Shown here piece after piece: positions 34,258-59,732 of a stretch of DNA of 64,000 nucleotides. The stretch lies in UHGV virus genome UHGV-0385297; one strand, given 5' to 3'. The notes beneath the pieces were generated by a model, which was not told the origin of the DNA, did no database searches, and saw only the letters and a list, made by a program, of their open reading frames with translations. Position numbers and translations under genes: made by a program. The DNA is from a virus. Within the stretch, counting starts at the first letter, position 1. Each line of letters begins with the position of its first letter.

Positions 34258-34379
34258 AAAATAAAAAGAAGCGAGATAGCAGTAAAATATATCACTTCTT
34301 TATAAATAAATATTCTATACTGAACAAAATTGCGTTTTCCGCAACTTTTTTAAAATGCGCAAATTTTATTTTTATACCA

Positions 34380-34450
34380 CGTTGTCCGATATTTTCACAA
34401 ATGTCCGATTATCCACCATTACATTGCTCCTTTTGGTGGATATTCGGACA
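34380..34450. repeat. TGTCCGA(T) repeats (two direct, one inverted) upstream of int
   Basis: The sequences gttgTCCGATattttcac, aTGTCCGATtatcc and ATTCGGACAaatc. Confidence 0.4.
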
Positions 34451-34715
34451 AATCAAATACTTGATTTTTACTAATATATCAATGTTTTTTTGAGTTTTTT
34501 TGCGAATCGTTACCTCTATACACTCTATTACTTATTATTAGCGTTAGCCACATAGCTTTTCTTTTTCTGATTCTGACGTTCTAATGCGGCTATGCCGCTT
34601 CTTTTTATAAATACCATTTTGAAAATAAGTGTAATTTTTTACACCTTTTCGCTCTAAAAGGTGTAAATATATACACCTACAATGAAGACTTTTTATAGTA
34701 TTTTAAGTAAAAATC

Positions 34716-45668: not shown

Positions 45669-46532
45669 CTAAGCTTTTCTATTTGTGGTATTACGTTTTT
45701 CGTTATATTTTTTATATCTAATTAAATCATTTTTTCTCTTACACTCACCACAATACATTTTCTTATTTCCTGTTTTTTCAATCAGTGCGCCACATTGTTT
45801 ACAGCGAGTGTACTTATTATTGTGTCCACGCTTAACTCCATAATATTCTTTCTGATAATTTCGAATATAATAGGAAAGAGAACGATTTATGTACTTAACA
45901 TAGAAATGATCTTCAGTAATAAAATCAAAATTATTTACAAGCTTTGTCTTATCTTCATACTCGTCAATCAATTTACAATTGTCAAAACACTTTCTAAGAA
46001 AACCCTCAATTATGATTTTGTACTCGTTCCAGGAAAGGGTCATTTTTTCTTTCTGAAATCTTTCTTTCGTGGTTAAAGCTTTATCCATAATGTCATCTAT
46101 GACAGAAGTAGCATTTTCTTCGGTCATATCTACACCAGAAGCCCATTTGTAATACAATTGTTTTGGCTTTTTGAGCAAATCCATATATTCCTTATTTAGA
46201 ATTACTTCTTTATCAAAATATTTCGTATAAATATTATTTATTTTTTGCCTTATAATTGAACACCAATTTTGATTTTTGGAAACAGATTTATAGTATTTAT
46301 ATTCAATCATGGACCATGCATCAAATACTTGTCCAACTGGTGTTCCCAGTAAATTCTTTGCTACCTTAAATCGAATAGCTTTCTTATATGTTCTTCTTTT
46401 ATTTCCACATGACCAGATGGCGGAGCAGAACGAAGAGAAAACTTCGTCCTTTTGCTCCTGAGTCTGTAGTTCTTTGTATTTTTCTATAATTTCATATAGA
46501 AATGTTTCGTTACAGTCGTAAATATGTATCAC
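45669..46532 (-). CDS. Hypothetical protein with a C-terminal CxxC zinc finger (possible transcription factor partner of the RNA polymerase)
   Basis: CKQCGAL...CGECKRK. Confidence 0.35.
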   Translation of the reverse strand: MIHIYDCNETFLYEIIEKYKELQTQEQKDEVFSSFCSAIWSCGNKRRTYKKAIRFKVAKNLLGTPVGQVFDAWSMIEYKYYKSVSKNQNWCSIIRQKINNIYTKYFDKEVILNKEYMDLLKKPKQLYYKWASGVDMTEENATSVIDDIMDKALTTKERFQKEKMTLSWNEYKIIIEGFLRKCFDNCKLIDEYEDKTKLVNNFDFITEDHFYVKYINRSLSYYIRNYQKEYYGVKRGHNNKYTRCKQCGALIEKTGNKKMYCGECKRKNDLIRYKKYNEKRNTTNRKA

Positions 46533-49140
46533 CTACTTCAAATTCATAATATTTTCCAAGATATTCATAAGTATTATATGATTTGTATGGAACTTCTCGA
46601 ATAGAAATATTTCGCTTTGGATTAGTATTATTTTTTAAATTCTCAATAATATATTCTCCATAAGCAGCCCAAGCTAAAGATTTACTGATTGAAAGAGAAG
46701 AGTATGAAGTTGCAATAACATAATTGGCAATAACATCTTCGTCAAGTTTAAGTTTTTCAGAAATATTATCTTTATATTTCTTTACAACTTCGTCCATACT
46801 AAAATCATTATTTTCATCTTTATGTAAATTTAGATGCTGCTTTATTTCATCTGCATACATATTGATGAATTTCTTACACTCTTTAATGACTCCTTTATCT
46901 TTTAGATTAAGGTCATTGTTGACGATTAAGCATCTTGTATCTATAAGATCATTAACACTGTTATCCCATTTAATATTCTTTTTCTCCCATGTCTCGATGT
47001 ATTCACATAATTCATTCATAGGAGAAGGAGACCTATAGGCATTCAATTTTTCTTTCTCATCTGGTTCAACTCCCTTATTTTTACTAAGAATATTCTGATA
47101 CGTTTTCATTTTTTGAGGATAATTATGAAGCAAGAAATACGGTAGCTGTTTTAAATGTTTTCTCAGACCACTATTCATATGCCACCTAAAACCGGTTTTA
47201 AGAAAATCAATTTCTTTGCCCTGGAAAATTCTTAGAAGAGAAGAGGAATCAGAGTATAACTTCTGAATATCTGGATTTGTTGTATACCGATTCTCAATGC
47301 TTGTTGCTACATTGGTTATTTCACCAATACGGTTATCTCTTGTCATTACTTCATACTCAATTAAATTTTCTTTCGTATATGGTTTTGACTTTGCTGTAAC
47401 CTTATCTTCGACATCAAGAATAATATGTTTGTCAATTTTTGAACCAATAACAATTGGTTCGTTGCACAAAAAGAAAATATCCCCGTCAAAATCTGCCCCT
47501 CCCTGCTGCGGGGCAGATATATCATACATATTAAACATCACGACATCTTGATCTTTAAAATATCCGAACCATTTATTTAAAATGTCATTTCGCACAATTT
47601 GAATCTTGTTTACTTCAGATGGGTCCACAAGAGGAGATCTAAAAGAAGCACAATATCCTGGTTCAAAATTTGCAGTATATAATTCTCTTTCTTTTAAGCA
47701 ACCGACTGGATTTTCTCCGACTGCATATTGAAGATAACCAATCATATCACCAACACCTGTATGATAAAAACCAGAACAATAAATTTTTCCTACTTTTGCC
47801 TCATCAATGGATTTTTTTAATTTTCTATAAATAAACTGCTTTACTGCAGGATCCTTCAACATTACATCATTGATCAATGCTGCTTCGAGATATTTACTTT
47901 CTGGCTCATATCCATCTGTATCATTTATACCCATGAATTTGTAGGTATAAAATTTATCTCCTTTAATAATCTTCTCGAATAGGTTAGTAGTGTATTTTGC
48001 CAATTTGATGATTTTTCCATCATTGTCAGGATTTAAAACGTCATATTCTTTTCTATTTTTATCTACAAAACTATTGATGTATTTCTCATTCCATAGATCA
48101 AGACATTGTAAATACTGAAAATTCATTCTGGTGTACTTGTTTAAGTGCTTTACATGATGGCTATACTTACTAATACCTAATTTAAACTGATATTTCTGTA
48201 ATGTCTTCATATATTCAATCCATGCATCATTTCCATACTTTGATTTAAAAATCTTATGACCTTTAAACATTGAGATGTTCCAGATACAATCAATATCATC
48301 GATTTTATGCTCATATCCATAGATATCAGTAATAGTAGTGTATCCCCATTCCTTTAGAATTTGTTTAAATGGAACATATACGGAATATCCTTTTATAAAT
48401 GGCAGACGAACCTGGTTTCCAATAACGTCATAGCCTAAATCCAACTGTGTACTAACAGTTTTCATAAATTCTCTTTCATGACAACCACATCCATCAAAAG
48501 GAGATAATCCTATATCTCTTAAACCTTCTTCAATTTCTCTAACTTTATATTTTTTGGACTCACCAGTTTCTTTATCTACGAAAGTTTTTTCTTTTTCTAT
48601 GACATATTTGATAAGCTGATCATTTAAAGTTTTTTCATATTCACCGATGATAACAATATTTGGAATATAATCTTTAATGAGAGTACAGGAGCTAAACGGG
48701 AGACATCTTTGCGCTTCATATTTAGAAATAACGCACTCATCAATTTCAATATCCATTTGAGTGATCATGTATAATTCATCGAAAATTTCGTCACATACAA
48801 AAGCAGTAATACCGTCTTTTCCCTGAGATGCAGATTTTCCAAAACGAGAATAATGAGTACCGTTATACGTAAATCCATTATTAAGAATATCTCGCAGTGC
48901 GGTTTCTTGTTTTGGATTCTTTTTTGCGACTATAAGCATAAGCTCTTTAATATGTGTTGAAAATCTACCTCTTAGCCTTTGAATCTGATCAAACAATAAG
49001 GAATCACCTTGTTTAATAAGATATTCATTATCTATTTCTTCATTTTTACTTAGACTCAAATCATATTCTGAATCAATGAGTTTTTTGATTGGTAACTTAA
49101 CCAAAGTGTATTGAATTGATTTTATAATAAACACCACCAT
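46510..49140 (-). CDS. Putative single-subunit two-barrel RNA polymerase (YonO-like), 876 aa
   Basis: Contains QQGGADFDGDIFF, which matches the universally conserved NADFDGD Mg-binding motif of the beta-prime/DPBB catalytic barrel. Confidence 0.5.
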   Translation of the reverse strand: MVVFIIKSIQYTLVKLPIKKLIDSEYDLSLSKNEEIDNEYLIKQGDSLLFDQIQRLRGRFSTHIKELMLIVAKKNPKQETALRDILNNGFTYNGTHYSRFGKSASQGKDGITAFVCDEIFDELYMITQMDIEIDECVISKYEAQRCLPFSSCTLIKDYIPNIVIIGEYEKTLNDQLIKYVIEKEKTFVDKETGESKKYKVREIEEGLRDIGLSPFDGCGCHEREFMKTVSTQLDLGYDVIGNQVRLPFIKGYSVYVPFKQILKEWGYTTITDIYGYEHKIDDIDCIWNISMFKGHKIFKSKYGNDAWIEYMKTLQKYQFKLGISKYSHHVKHLNKYTRMNFQYLQCLDLWNEKYINSFVDKNRKEYDVLNPDNDGKIIKLAKYTTNLFEKIIKGDKFYTYKFMGINDTDGYEPESKYLEAALINDVMLKDPAVKQFIYRKLKKSIDEAKVGKIYCSGFYHTGVGDMIGYLQYAVGENPVGCLKERELYTANFEPGYCASFRSPLVDPSEVNKIQIVRNDILNKWFGYFKDQDVVMFNMYDISAPQQGGADFDGDIFFLCNEPIVIGSKIDKHIILDVEDKVTAKSKPYTKENLIEYEVMTRDNRIGEITNVATSIENRYTTNPDIQKLYSDSSSLLRIFQGKEIDFLKTGFRWHMNSGLRKHLKQLPYFLLHNYPQKMKTYQNILSKNKGVEPDEKEKLNAYRSPSPMNELCEYIETWEKKNIKWDNSVNDLIDTRCLIVNNDLNLKDKGVIKECKKFINMYADEIKQHLNLHKDENNDFSMDEVVKKYKDNISEKLKLDEDVIANYVIATSYSSLSISKSLAWAAYGEYIIENLKNNTNPKRNISIREVPYKSYNTYEYLGKYYEFEVGDTYLRL

Positions 49141-54849: not shown

Positions 54850-55335
54850 TGGTAGAGTGGATTTGTAGTATAGATATAATGGTAGATACGACAAGTTAAT
54901 AATCGGATACGTTAGAACGATCCCTGGGTAATGGTATGTTATGTACTGTTACTTGGGGATTTTTTGTTGTGTAATTGTGTTGGGATGGATCGGAATGGAT
55001 GAAGGGTATGTTTTGATGTGTTATGAGTTGAAAACATGGAATCGTAAATTCCCTTTAATATAATGAAGAAACACGTTTTAAGATTAGAATTTTAATTTTT
55101 GGGATGTTGCATTTTTTGAAATTTTGGTGCGATTTTTATTGAGATTGCGGGATTTTTACGATAAGGGGGCCGATAACAGTTTTTGAGGTGGTGACGAGGG
55201 GATTTTGGGCGTAGTTGTGGGGAAATGGAGTGTTGGGATTTGGAATGTAGATGGGAGAGGAGCGTGATACACCTGGATGAGTTGGAAGTGGTGGGTGATT
55301 TGGAAGAGATGTTCAAATTTTAATTTGAAAGTTTG
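54850..55335 (+). other. C-depleted, G/T-rich, GGA-repeat-rich non-coding segment
   Basis: The plus strand has almost no C over about 480 nt. There are many GGA/GGGAT/TTGGGAT motifs and G-tracts. Confidence 0.5.
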
Positions 55336-55662
55336 ATTTTGAACTTAGTGTGTAGATGAAACAGCTACCGGCTCTGGTGAAAACACTTTAGCACTTTAAA
55401 GTTTTAACCAGCCCCCATAAACAATAATAGTAATAATTACTGTTATTTTACACGGTTTTTTCCTATTTTACCGTAGCCGAACATATGTTCTGTTATTTGA
55501 TCCGACTTCTGGCAATCGAACATATGTTTGCTTATTGACTGTGAGCTATGATAGTTTTTTAAACTTTTACATGTAGTATTGATAACTACATGTAATGATA
55601 TTTAATACTATAAGAGGTAGTTCGACAGTGAAAAAATAATATCGAAAAAATTAAAATTGTTA

Positions 55663-55691
55663 TTGACAATCACACTATCATGTGATATATT
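55663..55691 (+). promoter_or_regulatory. Promoter TTGACA-17-TATATT with an embedded TCACAC-N6-TGTGA operator
   Basis: Sequence read directly. Confidence 0.55.
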
Positions 55692-55763
55692 ATAGTCAAG
55701 TTCATAAAGAACGACAGCGGGAACGCTGTTATAGCACTTTTAAAAGTTTTTAGAAAAAAGTGC

Positions 55764-55792
55764 TTGACAATCACATGAACGTGTGATATAGT
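55764..55792 (+). promoter_or_regulatory. Promoter TTGACA-17-TATAGT with an embedded TCACA-N6-TGTGA operator
   Basis: Sequence read directly. It is tandem to the previous promoter. Confidence 0.55.
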
Positions 55793-55799
55793 CATTAAT

Positions 55800-56530
55800 G
55801 TAAGAACAAAGTAGTTCAGTTCTTACAGCCGCTAAAATGCCCATGTGGGGCGGTGGCAAGTTCCTTGTCAATTTAATAGGAATAAAGCCCATGAATTGAA
55901 AAATTCACAGGCTTTAAAAGTTGGTTTGATAAACCAAACCGTAGCAAGTTCAGTTTATCATTCTATCTTTCATTTGTCAAGTCTGGCAAGTGTTTTCCTA
56001 TTAATCGGCTACCAGTGACGGCACTGGTGGACTTTGCGCAACGGTCAAGATAACAATACTGGATGCCCGCAAGAGTGTCTAGCGTTTACGCAAGTAAGCG
56101 CATTGTGAAAATACCCGTTGTGGGTACATTGAAAAATAAACAACTTATACAGTGTTTTATAAAGCGTTTGGCATTTTCAACAACGGGTGAATTCCCCGTT
56201 AAAATGTCCGTGTAGCGTATAAAAGCGTTACACTAGCAAGCTGGACTTAGCACGACTGCGGTTGTGAACGTGTTCGCATTTGCGCACTTAGCTTGCTACT
56301 GGTGAAAATCCCACACTAGGATTCTGAAATCTTGCCTAGTAGTGACCCGTAAGAAGGTAGGAAGTCGGTTTAAGGCTGAGAAGCATTTTGGACAATAAAT
56401 AAAATGATTGTAAGACGTGTCGTTATACATAGGTCAAGGGGCGGACTAGCACTACCAGTCTGTCCTTTGCTCGTGTGCATAACACGGCAACTACAAAAAA
56501 TAATTTTAATTCCGCAATGCGGAGAAAGAG
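55800..56530 (+). ncRNA. Large, highly structured non-coding RNA candidate (ROOL/GOLLD-like?)
   Basis: About 700 nt without a credible ORF and GC-richer than its surroundings. Multiple long-range helices (ACCCGTTGT...ACAACGGGT; TAGCAAGCT...AGCTTGCTA; GTAAGAAC...GTTCTTAC). It sits downstream of two strong promoters. Confidence 0.4.
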
Positions 56531-56538
56531 GTATTTAT

Positions 56539-57339
56539 ATGAAGATTAACTTTTTAGCAAACTTTGAGAAAGTAACTATCAACGCTATTGTGCCAGCGGT
56601 ACAGTATGAGGCTAACCTGATGCTTCAGACTATGAATGATGAAGCAATCGCTAAACAGGATAAAATCATCTCTAATCAAAAAGGTGGTTACTCTGAGGAC
56701 GAAATTAAGGTAGCAAAGGACAAAAAGAGTAAACTGGAAGCCGCTAACGCTGAACTTGTAATTGCTAATGCTGAACTTGAGCCACGCTACAAGTCTACCC
56801 TGGAAGTAGTTACCAGTGCTAACAATGGTCATGTATCTAATGACCTTGTAGCGTTCCGTAACATTTTACGGCTTGTGGCATGCTCTGATAATAGCAAGTT
56901 TTTCCGCTATGCCATTATCACAGATGTCGATTTTTCAACGTTTTATGACCTGTTTGAAAAGTGCCATTCTATCGATGGTGACTTTGATGACAATGGTATG
57001 CGTGTATACCTTAATCAGGCTTGGAACACCCATAAAGACATCAAAGCTGAGATTGAAAAAATCCTTAAAAAAATGTTTTCACTCGTTGCTGACAGTGATT
57101 TAACCAAAAAAGTTACTATCAGATTTAACAAAACAGACCTTGGCATCTTACATGAGTGTTACGTCACAGGTCTGACCGTTTCTGCTAAAAAGGATAAAAA
57201 CGGTGAGGTAGTAGTGGGTGATTATAAATTTAGAACTGTAATCACTCGTAAGAAAGACAAGGATGGCAATGATAAGTTTGAAGGTGACAAGTTCAAAGAA
57301 CTCATTGCTAAAATTGCGTTTGGAAAACTGTATGCATAG
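56539..57339 (+). CDS. Hypothetical protein (266 aa)
   Basis: RBS GGAGAAAGAGG. The track ORF starts earlier, inside the structured RNA. Confidence 0.5.
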   Translation: MKINFLANFEKVTINAIVPAVQYEANLMLQTMNDEAIAKQDKIISNQKGGYSEDEIKVAKDKKSKLEAANAELVIANAELEPRYKSTLEVVTSANNGHVSNDLVAFRNILRLVACSDNSKFFRYAIITDVDFSTFYDLFEKCHSIDGDFDDNGMRVYLNQAWNTHKDIKAEIEKILKKMFSLVADSDLTKKVTIRFNKTDLGILHECYVTGLTVSAKKDKNGEVVVGDYKFRTVITRKKDKDGNDKFEGDKFKELIAKIAFGKLYA

Positions 57340-58256: not shown

Positions 58257-58340
58257 ATGATGAGTTTTGTTTGGGTAATGTGTGTATTTTTCGGTGGTAT
58301 GGCATGTGGTTATTTACTTACTGATAATAAGGAGGATTAA
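58257..58340 (+). CDS. 27-aa hydrophobic peptide MMSFVWVMCVFFGGMACGYLLTDNKED
   Basis: Identical RBS block GGAGGTAGCGAAATG to that at 58070. Below the track cut-off. Confidence 0.3.
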   Translation: MMSFVWVMCVFFGGMACGYLLTDNKED

Positions 58341-58344
58341 GGAT

Positions 58345-58710
58345 ATGAAAAGAGAAATGACTAGAGGAGAAATGAGACTGTATTTAACTGGCAATGCCAG
58401 TGTATGGGTAGGTAAGACATTTGCACATGGTAAAAACATGCGCATGGTATCCAGGTTCACAGAAGAGGCAGATTATACCTGTGAGTATGATGGTGAGGAT
58501 CTGGGTGATGGATTCTGCACACATGACGTAGACGAGGCACTTGACTGGTTATTCGGTGTACGGAAATCAAACTACCAGAAGCATTATTTCTACTTTGCGA
58601 CTGGGGAAAATGTAAAATCAATCTGCTTTTACACATCAGAGGACGCATGGGAATTTGTAAAAGAATACGCAGATAGCGGTTATGACTGCGTAGTAGAAAG
58701 ATATATATAA
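58345..58710 (+). CDS. Hypothetical protein
   Basis: RBS AAGGAGG before the internal ATG. Confidence 0.45.
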   Translation: MKREMTRGEMRLYLTGNASVWVGKTFAHGKNMRMVSRFTEEADYTCEYDGEDLGDGFCTHDVDEALDWLFGVRKSNYQKHYFYFATGENVKSICFYTSEDAWEFVKEYADSGYDCVVERYI

Positions 58711-58833
58711 AGGCAGACCATGCTCTGCCAGCTCTGAGTTATGGAAACCGCTACGAGGTTCAGAGCAGACAACGGAATTTATTTCGGCTAATATCCATAG
58801 GTAACTTGTAAACCAGTATAAAAACCGTTATAC

Positions 58834-59043
58834 TTGACTTATAAAAGTGAAAGGCGGTGGAAAGGAATGGAAGGCATGAGCGAAAGCGAACTGATTGCTG
58901 TATTAATCGATAAGTACACAGATTTACAGCGAATCAAAAAAGCAAACGGCGGAGTAGAAAACGCAGAACTTGATTATCAGATTAAAGTCACCACTGCGAA
59001 ATTAGCTTCTATGAAGGTAAATGTAGAAGATTTAACTTTATAA
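58834..59043 (+). CDS. Hypothetical small protein
   Basis: ORF only. Confidence 0.35.
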   Translation: MTYKSERRWKGMEGMSESELIAVLIDKYTDLQRIKKANGGVENAELDYQIKVTTAKLASMKVNVEDLTL

Positions 59044-59703: not shown

Positions 59704-59732
59704 TTGAAAATCACATGTATATGTGATAGAAT
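59704..59732 (+). promoter_or_regulatory. Promoter TTGAAA-17-TAGAAT with an embedded TCACA-N6-TGTGA operator
   Basis: Same architecture as the promoters at 55663 and 55764. Confidence 0.5.

What the first reader, a model, noticed from the sequence alone, without database searches (positions are those of the whole stretch)
55800..56530. Large ornate non-coding RNA candidate downstream of two strong promoters (ROOL/GOLLD-like?)
About 700 nt with no plausible ORF, GC-enriched relative to the phage, and full of local and long-range complementarities. These include an 8-bp hairpin GTAAGAAC/GTTCTTAC, 9-bp helices ACCCGTTGT/ACAACGGGT and TAGCAAGCT/AGCTTGCTA enclosing 60-70 nt domains, GGTTTG/CAAACC and GTGTAGCG/CGTTACAC. 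It is transcribed from tandem consensus promoters and ends just before an RBS. Large structured RNAs of unknown function (ROOL, GOLLD) are characteristically found in Firmicutes prophages. This may be one, or a new class.
Basis: partly seen in the sequence, partly recalled or inferred. Interest (0 to 1): 0.75.

Follow-up and report, generated by a model that had tools for sequence, protein, structure and literature searches.

The report
Modular phage early-operon leader with antisense RNA
The 740-base gene-free stretch is real, strongly folded and unlike any catalogued RNA, but it is best read as the patchwork untranslated leader of a gut phage's early genes, carrying a small antisense RNA gene, and not as one giant ROOL- or GOLLD-like RNA.

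Summary
Window 55795-56538 has no credible ORF under any code. It sits behind two near-consensus, operator-bearing promoters. It is the most strongly folded stretch of the 64-kb window (z about -7 to -10).

The ROOL/GOLLD interpretation does not hold. No Rfam family matches, even at E<=10. Near-identical relatives swap, delete or interrupt whole sections, which a single ornate fold would not tolerate.

The region splits into modules:
- A 5' hairpin and an A-bulged hairpin.
- A 130-bp cassette that, on the minus strand, is a conserved sigma-A promoter (TTGACA, 17 nt, TG-extended -10), a conserved start motif and a terminator. This predicts an antisense RNA of about 70 nt facing the early promoters. 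It recurs in at least seven diverged lineages.
- A plus-strand hairpin with a U-run.
- A plus-strand-specific domain (56037-56122) with 12 compensatory pairs.
- A variable 3' body.
- A conserved 64-nt hairpin at the leader/mRNA junction, where relatives carry hammerhead-like, twister-like or tRNA-like elements.

Best reading: a repressor- and LexA-controlled early leader gated by a countertranscript and probably cut away from the mRNA. The layout resembles pIP501 RNAIII/RNAII. The mechanism is inferred, not shown. I rate it a new variant of a known kind, of moderate interest.

The parts
55478..55530 (.). Two LexA (Cheo-type) boxes, CGAACATATGTTCT and CGAACATATGTTTG, upstream of the early promoters (context)
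   Evidence: They are the only two zero-mismatch matches in the 64-kb window and form a direct and inverted repeat. Reading them as the Firmicutes LexA site rests on the established consensus CGAACNNNNGTTCG. L028 and L051 carry similar boxes.
55663..55691 (+). Early promoter P1 (TTGACA, 17 nt, TATATT, with TG) carrying the palindromic operator ATCACA-N6-TGTGAT in its spacer
   Evidence: Relatives keep the promoter but change the palindrome: ACATGTT..AACATG in L001/L002 and ACTAC..GTAGT in L050.
55764..55792 (+). Early promoter P2 (TTGACA, 17 nt, TATAGT, with TG) with the same operator; predicted start near 55799
   Evidence: A third copy of the operator-promoter at 59704-59732 drives a 93-aa HTH_26 protein.
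55799..55827 (+). H1: 9-bp hairpin at the very 5' end of the P2 transcript (inferred 5' stabiliser)
   Evidence: z = -4.3. It is invariant in L001, L002, L031 and L005. L050 has an A-to-G change that gives a G.U pair only on the + strand.
55828..55857 (+). H2: hairpin with an A-rich bulge (motif CTAAAATGCCCATGTGGGGCGG)
   Evidence: The motif occurs once in the window. It recurs identically in the middle of the otherwise unrelated L028 leader, where, read by eye, the flanking stem changes compensate (G.U to C-G, C-G to U-A). It is replaced in L031 by a hairpin that acts as a terminator on the - strand.
55952..55980 (-). Antisense promoter Pas: -35 TTGACA (55980-55975), 17-nt spacer ending in TGA, -10 TAAACT (55957-55952)
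   Evidence: The scan tool finds it in the window, L031, L028 (11/12), L029 (11/12) and L046. In 9 of 9 sequences the -35, the 17-nt spacing, the TG and the -10 are kept while the spacer sequence varies. L051 has it as well.
55874..55945 (-). Predicted antisense RNA of about 70 nt: conserved start GCUACGG, stem-loop 1, terminator hairpin (55916-55883) and a U-rich tail
   Evidence: A - strand terminator is called in the window, and a canonical one in L031. It folds at -24.3 kcal/mol, z = -5.9, with 0 of 200 shuffles as stable. The start motif cttG(C/T)(T/C)ACGG is conserved in all lineages.
55971..56002 (+). Hairpin c (9 bp, loop AGUC) followed by UUUUCCUAUU: a terminator-like or attenuator candidate lying on the -35 of Pas
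   Evidence: z = -4.2. It shows compensatory and + strand G.U changes across lineages (helix 2). It forms whether or not the antisense target is masked.
56007..56033 (+). 11-bp hairpin CUACCAGUG/CACUGGUGG
   Evidence: Helix 9: 97.7% of cells paired, with one compensatory pair.
56037..56122 (+). Domain D2: closing helix CGCAACGG/CCGUUGUG, an internal 5-bp helix and two hairpins
   Evidence: Helices 10-13 carry 12 pairs with changes on both sides and are 95-100% paired. It is strand-specific: z = -3.7 on + and -0.7 on -.
56126..56421 (+).
   Evidence: It is replaced by unrelated 435-nt sequence in L001, L031 and L050 and is nearly invariant in the close relatives. Folding is moderate (z -2.2 and -1.7). 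No covariation data exist.
56422..56485 (+). Conserved long irregular hairpin at the leader/mRNA junction: base GUUAU/AUAAC plus CAUA/UGUG, with a variable top. Candidate processing site.
   Evidence: The window, L005, L029 and L044 each fold into the same architecture on their own, and the alignment agrees. z = -4.0 on + and -1.9 on -. Relatives carry a twister-P1-like element (L001, L031, L032, L050), a Hammerhead_3-like element (L051) or a tRNA-like element (L004) at the same place. L053 shows a hammerhead core by eye.
56512..56541 (+). RBS-proximal hairpin CCGCAAUGCGG, RBS AAAGAGG and the ATG of the 266-aa gene
   Evidence: The sequence is. The hairpin is kept with different sequence (CCCA/UGGG and others) in L005, L004 and L028.

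Best explanation
The region is the untranslated leader, about 740 nt long, of the early operon of a temperate SPbeta-like gut Firmicutes phage that encodes a YonO-type RNA polymerase. It is a chain of separable modules, not one RNA machine.

Proposed layout:
- Transcription starts at two tandem sigma-A promoters. Each is occluded by a palindromic operator, probably bound by the phage's 93-aa Cro/CI-type protein. Two LexA boxes lie upstream.
- The transcript opens with a 5'-terminal hairpin, a likely protection against 5'-end-dependent decay.
- It then runs head-on into a small antisense gene with its own consensus promoter. The RNA of about 70 nt from that gene is complementary to leader positions about +77 to +147.
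- Just past that target lies a plus-strand hairpin with a U-run.

Proposed working:
- While the early promoters are repressed, the constitutive antisense RNA mops up or truncates leaky leader transcripts. This could work by duplex cleavage or by termination at hairpin c.
- When the promoters fire, convergent transcription suppresses the antisense promoter and sense RNA outnumbers it. The operon then switches on sharply.
- The rest of the leader is folded plus-strand RNA that ends in a conserved hairpin. There the leader is probably cut from the mRNA, as relatives appear to do with ribozymes or a tRNA-like element.

Shown here: the non-coding nature, the promoters by sequence, conservation of the antisense gene, covariation in D2 and in hairpins b and c, and the mosaicism. 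Inferred: transcription itself, the regulatory logic and the processing.
For: - Non-coding.
- Sense promoters and operators.
- LexA boxes.
- Antisense promoter: the -35, the 17-nt spacing, the TG and the -10 are conserved while the spacer varies, in 9 of 9 sequences from six lineages, plus L051.
- Minus-strand terminators.
- Antisense RNA fold: z = -5.9.
- Both strands of 55799-56004 are strongly structured (z -7.4 and -5.9), whereas D2 is structured only on the + strand.
- Two-hairpin core: 10 of 20 pairs compensatory, covariation score 0.30 against at most 0.11 for slid controls, 0 of 500 shuffles as high.
- 5' half: 18 compensatory pairs against 2-5 for slid controls.
- L042 keeps the antisense cassette while losing H1, H2 and hairpin a.
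- A gene-free leader or upstream stretch of about 700 nt to 2.4 kb precedes this gene family in 11 loci (window, L004, L005, L028, L029, L046, L048, L049, L051, L052, L053), with protein identity down to about 20-40%.
- Junction elements in relatives: twister-P1-like, Hammerhead_3-like and tRNA-like.
- The described analogue, with a repressor, a 329-bp leader, a convergent antisense promoter and attenuation, is pIP501 (PMC4981023).
Against: - No expression data exist. Every promoter, start and terminator is a prediction.
- Hairpin c forms with or without the antisense target masked, so the classical alternative-fold attenuation switch is not evident.
- The U-run after hairpin c is weak in L028, L029 and L046.
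- L004, L005, L048, L049 and L052-L053 have long leaders without a recognisable antisense cassette. The cassette therefore cannot explain why a long leader is universal.
- The window's junction hairpin matches no known ribozyme, so processing there is argued only by position.
- The 3' 400 nt has no covariation data, because relatives are either nearly identical or unrelated there.
- Almost all covariation in the 5' half comes from one diverged sequence, L031, together with L050.
Confidence: 0.5

Rival explanations
1. Released cargo RNA. The leader body (roughly 56005-56420, or the whole 55799-56420) is cut free at the junction element and acts in trans. It could serve as a decoy or sponge against a host defence or an RNase. 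Its variability among near-identical phages would then reflect diversifying selection.
For: - Three different RNA-cutting devices sit at the same junction in relatives.
- Early operons of the group carry further ribozymes between genes: HDV-like in the window, pistol and twister-P5 above gathering score, and twister-P1 at 53 bits, below its gathering score of 67.2.
- The 3' body is swapped between phages whose flanks are 86-96% identical.
- D2 is a plus-strand fold supported by covariation.
- This would be among the first RNAs made after induction.
Against: - No target or mimicry was found. There is no Rfam hit and no repeat array.
- The variable body folds only moderately (z -1.7 to -2.2).
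- An IS insertion (L003) and deletions (L002, L042) are tolerated.
- Cleavage in the window's own version is unproven.
Confidence: 0.15
2. Replication control region or RNA-primed origin. A long structured transcript from a strong promoter would prime or activate replication, with a short antisense RNA against its 5' part setting the rate. This is how ColE1 RNA II/RNA I work, and pIP501 and pT181 use related countertranscript control.
For: - The layout matches: a repressor-controlled promoter, a long structured untranslated RNA and a convergent short antisense RNA near its 5' end.
- The pIP501 description agrees.
- The region lies near the point where gene orientation switches, at about 53.9 kb.
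- A G-rich, C-poor tract lies just upstream.
Against: - There are no iterons and no DnaA-box cluster.
- The 3' body, where a primer end would lie, is freely exchanged among phages with the same flanking genes.
- The G-rich tract lies upstream of P1 and P2, not inside their transcript.
Confidence: 0.1
3. One large ornate trans-acting RNA of a new class (ROOL- or GOLLD-like).
For: - Its size is about 740 nt, it is strongly folded (z -7.1) and it lies in a prophage-type genome.
- Junctions are conserved while hairpins vary in the 5' half.
- Most of the equivalent leaders in relatives also fold strongly on the + strand, with z from -7 to -12 in five of nine.
Against: - No Rfam hit appears at E<=10.
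- Modules are swapped, deleted or interrupted in relatives.
- The most conserved motifs are minus-strand promoter elements.
- The 3' half folds only modestly.
- No terminator precedes the gene.
Confidence: 0.08
4. No RNA-level function beyond spacing. The stretch would be a recombination hot spot between the immunity region and the early genes, filled with remnants, terminators and insulating hairpins.
For: - Mosaicism is extreme and an IS element is tolerated.
- Several hairpins also read as terminators on the opposite strand.
- Conservation in close relatives is no higher than in the neighbouring genes.
Against: - Compensatory changes include plus-strand G.U pairs in D2 and in hairpins b and c.
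- Fold energy is specific to the + strand.
- A long leader persists across protein divergence down to about 20-40% identity.
- The antisense gene is conserved.
Confidence: 0.07

Closest known systems
pIP501 / pAMbeta1 (Inc18) replication control: CopR, RNAII leader and RNAIII countertranscript (PMC4981023)
   Same: - A small HTH repressor acts at the sense promoter.
- A long untranslated leader precedes the controlled gene.
- A convergent antisense promoter lies inside the leader and makes a short stem-loop RNA.
- A terminator-like hairpin lies in the sense leader downstream of the target.
- The host range is Firmicutes.
- In L048 and L030 a 65-aa HTH gene sits directly upstream, in the position that copR occupies in pIP501.
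   Different: - The leader here is 740 nt (329 bp in pIP501) and mosaic.
- The antisense RNA is about 70 nt, not 136.
- No antisense-dependent alternative fold was found.
- The downstream gene is not a recognisable Rep.
- The element is a phage early operon, not a plasmid replicon.
- There is no sequence similarity: blastn against plasmids found nothing.
Phage immunity and early-leader RNAs: P4 CI RNA, P1/P7 c4 RNA, P22 sar, lambda OOP (from established knowledge; not checked in papers here)
   Same: In each, a short regulatory RNA is encoded in or against the untranslated leader of a phage early or antirepressor operon. It backs up protein repressors. In P4 and P1 the RNA is cut out of the leader by host RNases.
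   Different: - P4 CI and P1 c4 lie on the same strand as their target transcript and are processed from it, whereas this RNA has its own antisense promoter.
- sar and OOP target a ribosome-binding site or the 3' end of a gene, not a site about 600 nt upstream of the gene.
- There is no sequence or Rfam relationship.
ROOL, GOLLD and OLE large ornate RNAs (PMC12286853, PMC5737381)
   Same: Size class of 600-800 nt, prophage association in Firmicutes, and a strong predicted structure with variable peripheral hairpins.
   Different: - No covariance-model match.
- It is not a free-standing gene with its own terminator.
- Its modules are exchangeable.
- It is not adjacent to tRNAs; the nearest tRNA lies 11 kb away.
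Ribozyme-rich phage neighbourhoods (twister, hammerhead, pistol, HDV-like) and RNase III processing of T7 and SP82 early RNAs (from established knowledge)
   Same: Early polycistronic phage RNA is cut at structured elements between genes. In this phage group, HDV-like, twister-P5 and pistol elements match above or at gathering score, and twister-P1 (53 bits) and hammerhead-like elements match below it. All lie between early genes or at the leader/gene junction.
   Different: The window's own junction element (56422-56485) matches no ribozyme family. It looks like a long imperfect hairpin. Whether it is cut, and by what, is unknown.

Membership tests
ROOL (Rfam) | Match to the family covariance model | tested here: not met
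   There is no hit at gathering score in the window and none at E<=10 in 55300-56700. There is also none in relatives' loci at E<=1.
ROOL / GOLLD | A single conserved multi-domain architecture kept intact among homologues | tested here: not met
   The 3' 350 nt is replaced (L001, L031, L050), the 5' 230 nt deleted (L042), an 18-nt helix arm deleted (L002, L041, L003) and an IS element inserted (L003).
GOLLD, OLE, HEARO (Rfam) | Match to the family covariance model | tested here: not met
   no hit to any of the 4227 families other than chance-level matches (best E 0.63, 14.9 bits).
Countertranscript-controlled leader (pIP501 / pT181 type) | Repressor-controlled sense promoter followed by a long untranslated leader | tested here: met
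   Promoters with operator palindromes are seen. The 740 nt have no ORF. This rests on sequence only; no expression data exist.
Countertranscript-controlled leader (pIP501 / pT181 type) | Convergent antisense promoter inside the leader making a short stem-loop RNA with its own terminator | tested here: met
   The promoter is conserved in 9 of 9 sequences plus L051. Terminators are called. The fold has z = -5.9. All of this is prediction only.
Countertranscript-controlled leader (pIP501 / pT181 type) | Sense-strand attenuator whose formation depends on antisense binding | tested here: inconclusive
   Hairpin c plus a U-run lies 26 nt downstream of the target. It forms equally well with the target masked, and its U-run is weak in L028, L029 and L046.
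Countertranscript-controlled leader (pIP501 / pT181 type) | The controlled gene encodes the replication initiator | tested here: inconclusive
   The 266-aa protein has no Pfam or PHROG family. Its AF2 model (pLDDT 96) has no informative fold match.
Type I toxin-antitoxin locus | Small hydrophobic toxin ORF with an RBS on the sense RNA, overlapped by the antisense RNA | tested here: not met
   The window has no conserved small ORF. The MPMWGG... reading frame, read by eye in the window, L028 and L005, lacks an RBS and is stopped after 3 codons in L005. L028 does carry a toxin-like 25-aa ORF elsewhere in its leader.
Self-cleaving ribozyme (twister, hammerhead, pistol, hatchet, HDV-like) at the leader/gene junction | Match to a ribozyme covariance model at 56420-56500 | tested here: not met
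   One search finds nothing on the + strand there at E<=10. Relatives do carry sub-threshold twister-P1 hits (33-36 bits) and a Hammerhead_3 hit (27 bits) at the equivalent site.
RNase III-type processing hairpin | Long (20 bp or more) imperfect hairpin between transcript segments, cleaved by RNase III | not testable with these tools
   A hairpin of about 26 bp with internal loops is conserved in architecture in five lineages. Cleavage cannot be assessed by computation.
ColE1-type RNA II pre-primer | Persistent RNA-DNA hybrid and an RNase H-cut primer end at an origin | not testable with these tools
   Only the gross layout is similar. No origin features were found.

The most novel reading that the evidence does not exclude
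The conserved 64-nt element at 56422-56485 occupies exactly the position where relatives carry hammerhead-like, twister-like or tRNA-like elements, in operons that hold HDV-like, pistol and twister ribozymes elsewhere. It could be a new self-cleaving or otherwise self-processing RNA motif. It would release the upstream leader body of about 620 nt as a free, exchangeable 'cargo' RNA, for example an anti-defence decoy.
Probability: 0.12. Interest if true: 0.8.

Novelty: new variant of a known kind. Interest (0 to 1): 0.5.

Why it matters
- **A testable switch.** The region gives a concrete map of the lysis-lysogeny control region of an uncultured group of SPbeta-like phages of gut Clostridia and Erysipelotrichales. 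The map has LexA boxes, exchangeable operator specificities, tandem early promoters, a conserved countertranscript and a long folded leader.
- **A gap in RNA catalogues.** No Rfam family covers any of these RNA elements. The antisense cassette and domain D2 could be added as new motifs.
- **RNA-level mosaicism.** The leader and its operon are a hot spot for RNA modules. Relatives carry hammerhead-like, twister, pistol, HDV-like, tRNA-like and type-I-toxin-like elements at matching positions. This makes the locus a good place to ask why phages cut their early RNAs.
- **A hunting ground for new motifs.** Searching next to known ribozymes has already yielded new ribozyme classes, and the same approach could be applied here.

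Tried and rejected
1. Stop-codon recoding. The phage has five tRNAs and an HDV-like ribozyme, but none of the tRNAs is a suppressor. All three stops interrupt every frame.
2. Small proteins. The 57-aa, 50-aa and 20-aa ORFs lack an RBS and are not conserved.
3. Known RNA families. Rfam at gathering score and at E<=10 gave nothing.
4. GenBank relatives. blastn and tblastn against GenBank phages and PLSDB plasmids gave no match for the leader or for the 266-aa protein.
5. Pattern scan of IMG/VR for the core motif. It returned only the known contigs plus chance hits inside an unrelated coding region.
6. Origin features. There are no iterons and no excess of DnaA boxes.
7. Covariance model R1 of the two-hairpin core. 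It found one copy per related locus and none in L004, L005, L048, L049 or L006-L023.
8. Antisense-dependent attenuation by alternative folding. Hairpin c is unaffected by masking the target.
9. Extra conservation of the 3' half. It is no more conserved than the neighbouring genes.
10. Function of the downstream protein.
   - The first AF2 model was poor (pLDDT 59).
   - A 57-sequence alignment gave pLDDT 96.
   - A PDB sequence search gave nothing.
11. The 10-bp 'closing helix' TTAATAGGAA/TTCCTATTAA. It is probably not an RNA helix. More likely it is the U-rich tail of a terminator on each strand.
Full report
**What is in the window.** Region 55795-56538 lies between two tandem promoters and the ribosome-binding site of a 266-aa gene starting at 56539. 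The promoters are at 55663-55691 and 55764-55792, and each scores 11/12 with a TG extension. I translated all six frames with the three stop codons marked separately. Every frame is interrupted by all three kinds of stop, so stop-codon recoding cannot make the region coding. The five tRNAs of the window are ordinary. The longest ORFs (57 and 50 aa) have no Shine-Dalgarno sequence and are broken or replaced in relatives. GC content is 42.0%, against 34.1% for the window and 39.0% for the downstream genes.

**Is the folding more than chance?**
- The whole region folds at -243 kcal/mol, with z = -7.1 on the + strand and -5.8 on the - strand.
- In my 300-nt scan of the + strand of all 64 kb, windows 55601-55900 (z -10.1) and 55801-56100 (z -9.8) are the two most extreme of 319. 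The mean is -1.1 and the sd 1.8.
- With 100 shuffles per segment:

| Segment | z on + strand | z on - strand |
|---|---|---|
| 55799-56004 | -7.4 | -5.9 |
| 56005-56125 | -3.7 | -0.2 |
| 56126-56305 | -2.2 | -1.8 |
| 56306-56500 | -1.7 | -0.3 |

- The signal is therefore real but concentrated in the first 330 nt.
The 3' arm of ACCCGTTGT/ACAACGGGT lies in an 18-nt segment that is missing from L002, L041 and L003.

**Known families.** Rfam 15 gives no hit at gathering score. At E<=10 in 55300-56700 it gives only chance-level matches. ROOL, GOLLD, OLE and HEARO are therefore excluded as memberships. blastn and tblastn against GenBank phages and PLSDB plasmids find nothing for the leader or for the downstream protein.

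**The phage.** The window encodes a YonO-type single-subunit RNA polymerase (Pfam RdRP). Its nearest isolates are Thomasclavelia phages TR-TP1/2 at 30% identity, Enterocloster phages and SPbeta. One relative of the locus sits in a Eubacterium sp. MAG.

**Relatives and mosaicism.** I collected about 25 related loci through the downstream protein, the upstream protein and DNA patterns. Close relatives behave as follows:
- L002 and L041 match throughout, apart from the operator region and the 18-nt deletion.
- L001 (86-88% identical up to 56140) and L031 and L050 (83-85% identical up to about 56050) then carry an unrelated 435-nt body. L031 and L050 also replace individual hairpins upstream.
- L042 lacks 55698-55925.
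- L003 carries a 1.7-kb IS30-like element inserted at about 56003, flanked by a duplicated TTTCCTATTAATC.
- L005 shares only the first 65 nt and the last 110 nt.
- L004 shares nothing after 55647, yet also has about 720 nt of non-coding leader.

More distant loci, with 20-48% protein identity, again have 700 nt to 2.4 kb of gene-free sequence before the gene. These are L028, L029, L044/L046, L048/L049, L051, L052 and L053. Only L030 appears to lack it. A long leader is thus the conserved trait, and its sequence is not. Plus-strand fold z-scores of nine leaders range from -11.6 to -1.0. The plus strand is 31-48 kcal/mol more stable than the minus strand in the five most structured. Mosaicism of this kind is hard to reconcile with one global ornate fold.

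**Covariation on the plus strand.** I aligned the 5' half (window 55796-56135 with L002, L041, L001 and L031).
- RNAalifold predicts 114 pairs, 18 of them with changes on both sides.
- The pair-count tool gives 93.6% paired cells. It finds 18 compensatory pairs against 2-5 in slid controls, and 0 of 500 shuffles reach the observed values.
- The best-supported part is domain D2 (56037-56122). Its closing helix is CGCAACGG/CCGUUGUG. It has an internal helix and two hairpins, with 12 compensatory pairs and 95-100% pairing.
- D2 is strand-specific, with z = -3.7 on + and -0.7 on -.
- Caveat: essentially all of this variation comes from one diverged lineage, L031, later joined by L050.
- In the 3' 400 nt the close relatives are nearly identical, so nothing can be tested there. 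That stretch is also no more conserved than the adjacent genes.

**The key reinterpretation: an antisense gene.** The motif shared most widely among otherwise unrelated leaders is plus-strand TTTATCATT-N13-GTCAAGT. Read on the minus strand, it is a textbook sigma-A promoter:
- The -35 is TTGACA (window 55980-55975).
- The spacer is always 17 nt and ends in (A/G)TGA.
- The -10 is TAAACT, TAAAAT, TATACT or TAGACT.
- The spacer sequence varies freely.
- This holds in 9 of 9 sequences from six lineages and in L051.

The scan tool calls this promoter independently in the window, L031, L028 (11/12), L029 (11/12) and L046. Seven nucleotides downstream lies a conserved start motif, cttG(C/T)(T/C)ACGG. 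On the plus strand I had first taken this motif for a conserved apical loop.

About 30 nt further on the minus strand there is a terminator-like hairpin. It is at 55916-55883 plus a UUCCUAUU tail in the window. L031 replaces it with a different, canonical GC-rich hairpin plus U6. L029, L042, L044, L046 and L051 show similar hairpins by eye.

The predicted RNA is the reverse complement of 55874-55945, about 70 nt long. It folds into a single-stranded 5' tail, a stem-loop and the terminator, at -24.3 kcal/mol and z = -5.9. Covariance model R1 of this core finds exactly one copy in each related locus and none elsewhere. On its alignment, 10 of 20 pairs are compensatory. The covariation score is 0.30, against at most 0.11 for slid controls.

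L042 keeps this cassette while losing H1, H2 and hairpin a. The cassette is therefore the conserved unit of the 5' part. This also explains why both strands of 55799-56004 fold so well.

**Other parts of the leader.**
- H1 (55799-55827) sits at the predicted 5' end. L050 has an A-to-G change there that is a G.U pair only on the plus strand.
- H2 (55828-55857) has a 5-nt A-rich bulge. Its core, CTAAAATGCCCATGTGGGGCGG, recurs mid-leader in L028 with compensating stem changes.
- Hairpin c (55971-55992) plus UUUUCCUAUU is called a plus-strand terminator. It overlaps the -35 of Pas and varies with compensation, including plus-strand G.U pairs.
- Constrained folding shows that hairpin c forms whether or not the antisense target is masked. 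I therefore cannot demonstrate the alternative-fold attenuation used by pIP501 and pT181.

**The junction with the mRNA.**
- Window 56422-56485 forms a long irregular hairpin. Its base (GUUAU/AUAAC and CAUA/UGUG) is conserved and its top varies.
- The window, L005, L029 and L044 each fold into this architecture independently. L028 fits by alignment, with an A-U to U-A swap.
- z is -4.0 on the plus strand and -1.9 on the minus strand.
- At the same position, L001, L031, L032 and L050 have a twister-P1-like element. It scores 33-36 bits, below gathering score, with E = 3e-5 in a local search. It has a CUA/UAG replacement of the family consensus CCC...GGG, which I read as pseudoknot T2.
- L051 has a Hammerhead_3-like element at 27 bits, and L053 has a hammerhead core by eye.
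- L004 has an 88-nt tRNA-like element, called by ARAGORN but not by Rfam.
- Further downstream in these operons lie more ribozymes:
  - HDV-like in the window at 58731-58800, and in L001, L004, L005, L042 and L050.
  - Twister-P5 in L051, above gathering score.
  - Pistol in L052 at 58.7 bits, above gathering score.
  - Twister-P1 in L048 at 53 bits, below its gathering score of 67.2.

- By position, the window's hairpin is therefore a candidate processing site, either an RNase III-type site or something new. That is inference only.
- A short hairpin abutting the RBS is kept with different sequences in L004, L005 and L028.

**Regulatory context.**
- Each early promoter carries a palindrome in its spacer (ATCACA-N6-TGTGAT).
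- Relatives keep the promoter but change the palindrome. It is ACATGTT..AACATG in L001 and L002, ACTAC..GTAGT in L050, and by eye AAGTCTTTTAAAAGACT in L004. This is the pattern of exchangeable immunity specificities.
- A third copy at 59704-59732 drives a 93-aa HTH_26 protein, the likely cognate repressor or Cro.
- Two perfect Cheo-type LexA boxes lie at 55478 and 55517.

**Mechanism proposed.** I propose a repressor- and LexA-controlled early leader in which a constitutive convergent antisense RNA filters leaky transcription and is itself shut down by convergent transcription on induction. The folded remainder is cut from the mRNA at the junction hairpin. The closest described system is pIP501. 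It has the CopR repressor, a 329-bp leader, the 136-nt RNAIII from convergent promoter pIII, and both attenuation and convergent-transcription effects (PMC4981023). From established knowledge, P4 CI, P1 c4, P22 sar and lambda OOP are phage analogues, and ColE1 RNA I/RNA II shares the layout.

I give this reading 0.5. The steps shown are the anatomy and its conservation. Transcription, pairing in vivo, termination and processing are all inferred.

The rivals are:
- a released cargo or decoy RNA (0.15);
- replication control or an RNA-primed origin (0.10), with no iterons or DnaA boxes and no Rep-like neighbour;
- a single ornate RNA (0.08);
- no RNA function (0.07).

**Verdict.** The region is a real, uncatalogued, partly covariation-supported structured RNA region. 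It is a modular early-operon leader with an embedded antisense RNA gene, not a ROOL- or GOLLD-like RNA. I rate it a new variant of a known kind, with interest 0.5. The most novel reading still open is that the junction hairpin is a new processing ribozyme that releases an exchangeable cargo RNA (probability about 0.12).

Noticed in passing
window 58731-58800 (+): An HDV-like ribozyme (Rfam HDV-F-prausnitzii, 44.1 bits against a gathering score of 44) lies between gene 58282-58710 and a small ORF at 58868-59034 in the same early operon. The same element is found in L001, L004, L005, L042 and L050.
   Followed up: partly
L052 3140-3226; L051 3305-3377; L048 8073-8149: Relatives' early operons carry a pistol ribozyme (58.7 bits, above gathering), a twister-P5 ribozyme (40.3 bits, above gathering) directly after the 267-aa gene, and a twister-P1 ribozyme (53 bits). 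These operons are punctuated by several classes of self-cleaving ribozyme.
   Followed up: partly
window 55478-55491 and 55517-55530: Two perfect Firmicutes-type LexA (Cheo) boxes, CGAACATATGTTC, lie 39 bp apart, about 130-185 bp upstream of P1. They are the only zero-mismatch matches in the window. This suggests SOS control of the early region.
   Followed up: partly
window 54960-55320 (+); also L028 2580-2860 and L050 300-700: A non-coding tract of about 360 bp that is G/T-rich and nearly C-free (GC skew up to +0.66) lies between the upstream gene's terminator and the LexA boxes. The feature is conserved in distant relatives. Its function is unknown.
   Followed up: no
window 55669-55686, 55770-55787, 59710-59727; L001/L002, L050, L004: The operator palindromes inside the promoter spacers differ between otherwise near-identical phages, giving at least four specificities. 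A third operator-promoter at 59704-59732 drives a 93-aa HTH_26 (Cro/CI-type) gene at 59764-60045.
   Followed up: partly
L003 1774-3473: An IS30-like element (437-aa transposase, Pfam HTH_38) is inserted in the leader just after hairpin c. It is flanked by a duplicated TTTCCTATTAATC, so the leader is split from its early genes in that contig.
   Followed up: partly
L028 3480-3557 (+) and 3567-3539 (-): Inside this relative's leader is a 25-aa hydrophobic ORF with a charged tail (MISLIIKVAIITVLILSVRDDINNR) and a GGAGG RBS. A TG-extended antisense promoter sits at its 3' end. This looks like a type I toxin-antitoxin module.
   Followed up: no
L004 7546-7633 (+): An 88-nt tRNA-like element lies directly upstream of the first early gene. 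ARAGORN calls it tRNA-Lys(ttt) with an odd anticodon position, and the Rfam tRNA model does not detect it.
   Followed up: no
window 34260-34715: An ORF-free intergenic stretch of 456 nt in the minus-strand late-gene block is strongly folded (z = -7.2 on the - strand, -5.6 on +). It lies near tRNA genes and has no Rfam hit.
   Followed up: partly
window 46510-49140 (-): An 876-aa YonO-type single-subunit RNA polymerase (Pfam RdRP, E = 1e-13). It places the phage among the SPbeta-like phages of gut Clostridia and Erysipelotrichales.
   Followed up: partly
window 56539-57339 (+): The 266-aa first early gene belongs to a family of about 100 clusters at 50% identity, with no Pfam or PHROG family. 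The AF2 model is confident (pLDDT 96): a long helical hairpin plus an alpha/beta C-terminal domain. It has no informative PDB or BFVD fold match.
   Followed up: yes
window 60403-61058 (+): A RelE-family toxin gene (111 aa) is followed by an HTH_3 antitoxin-like gene (105 aa) in the early region.
   Followed up: no
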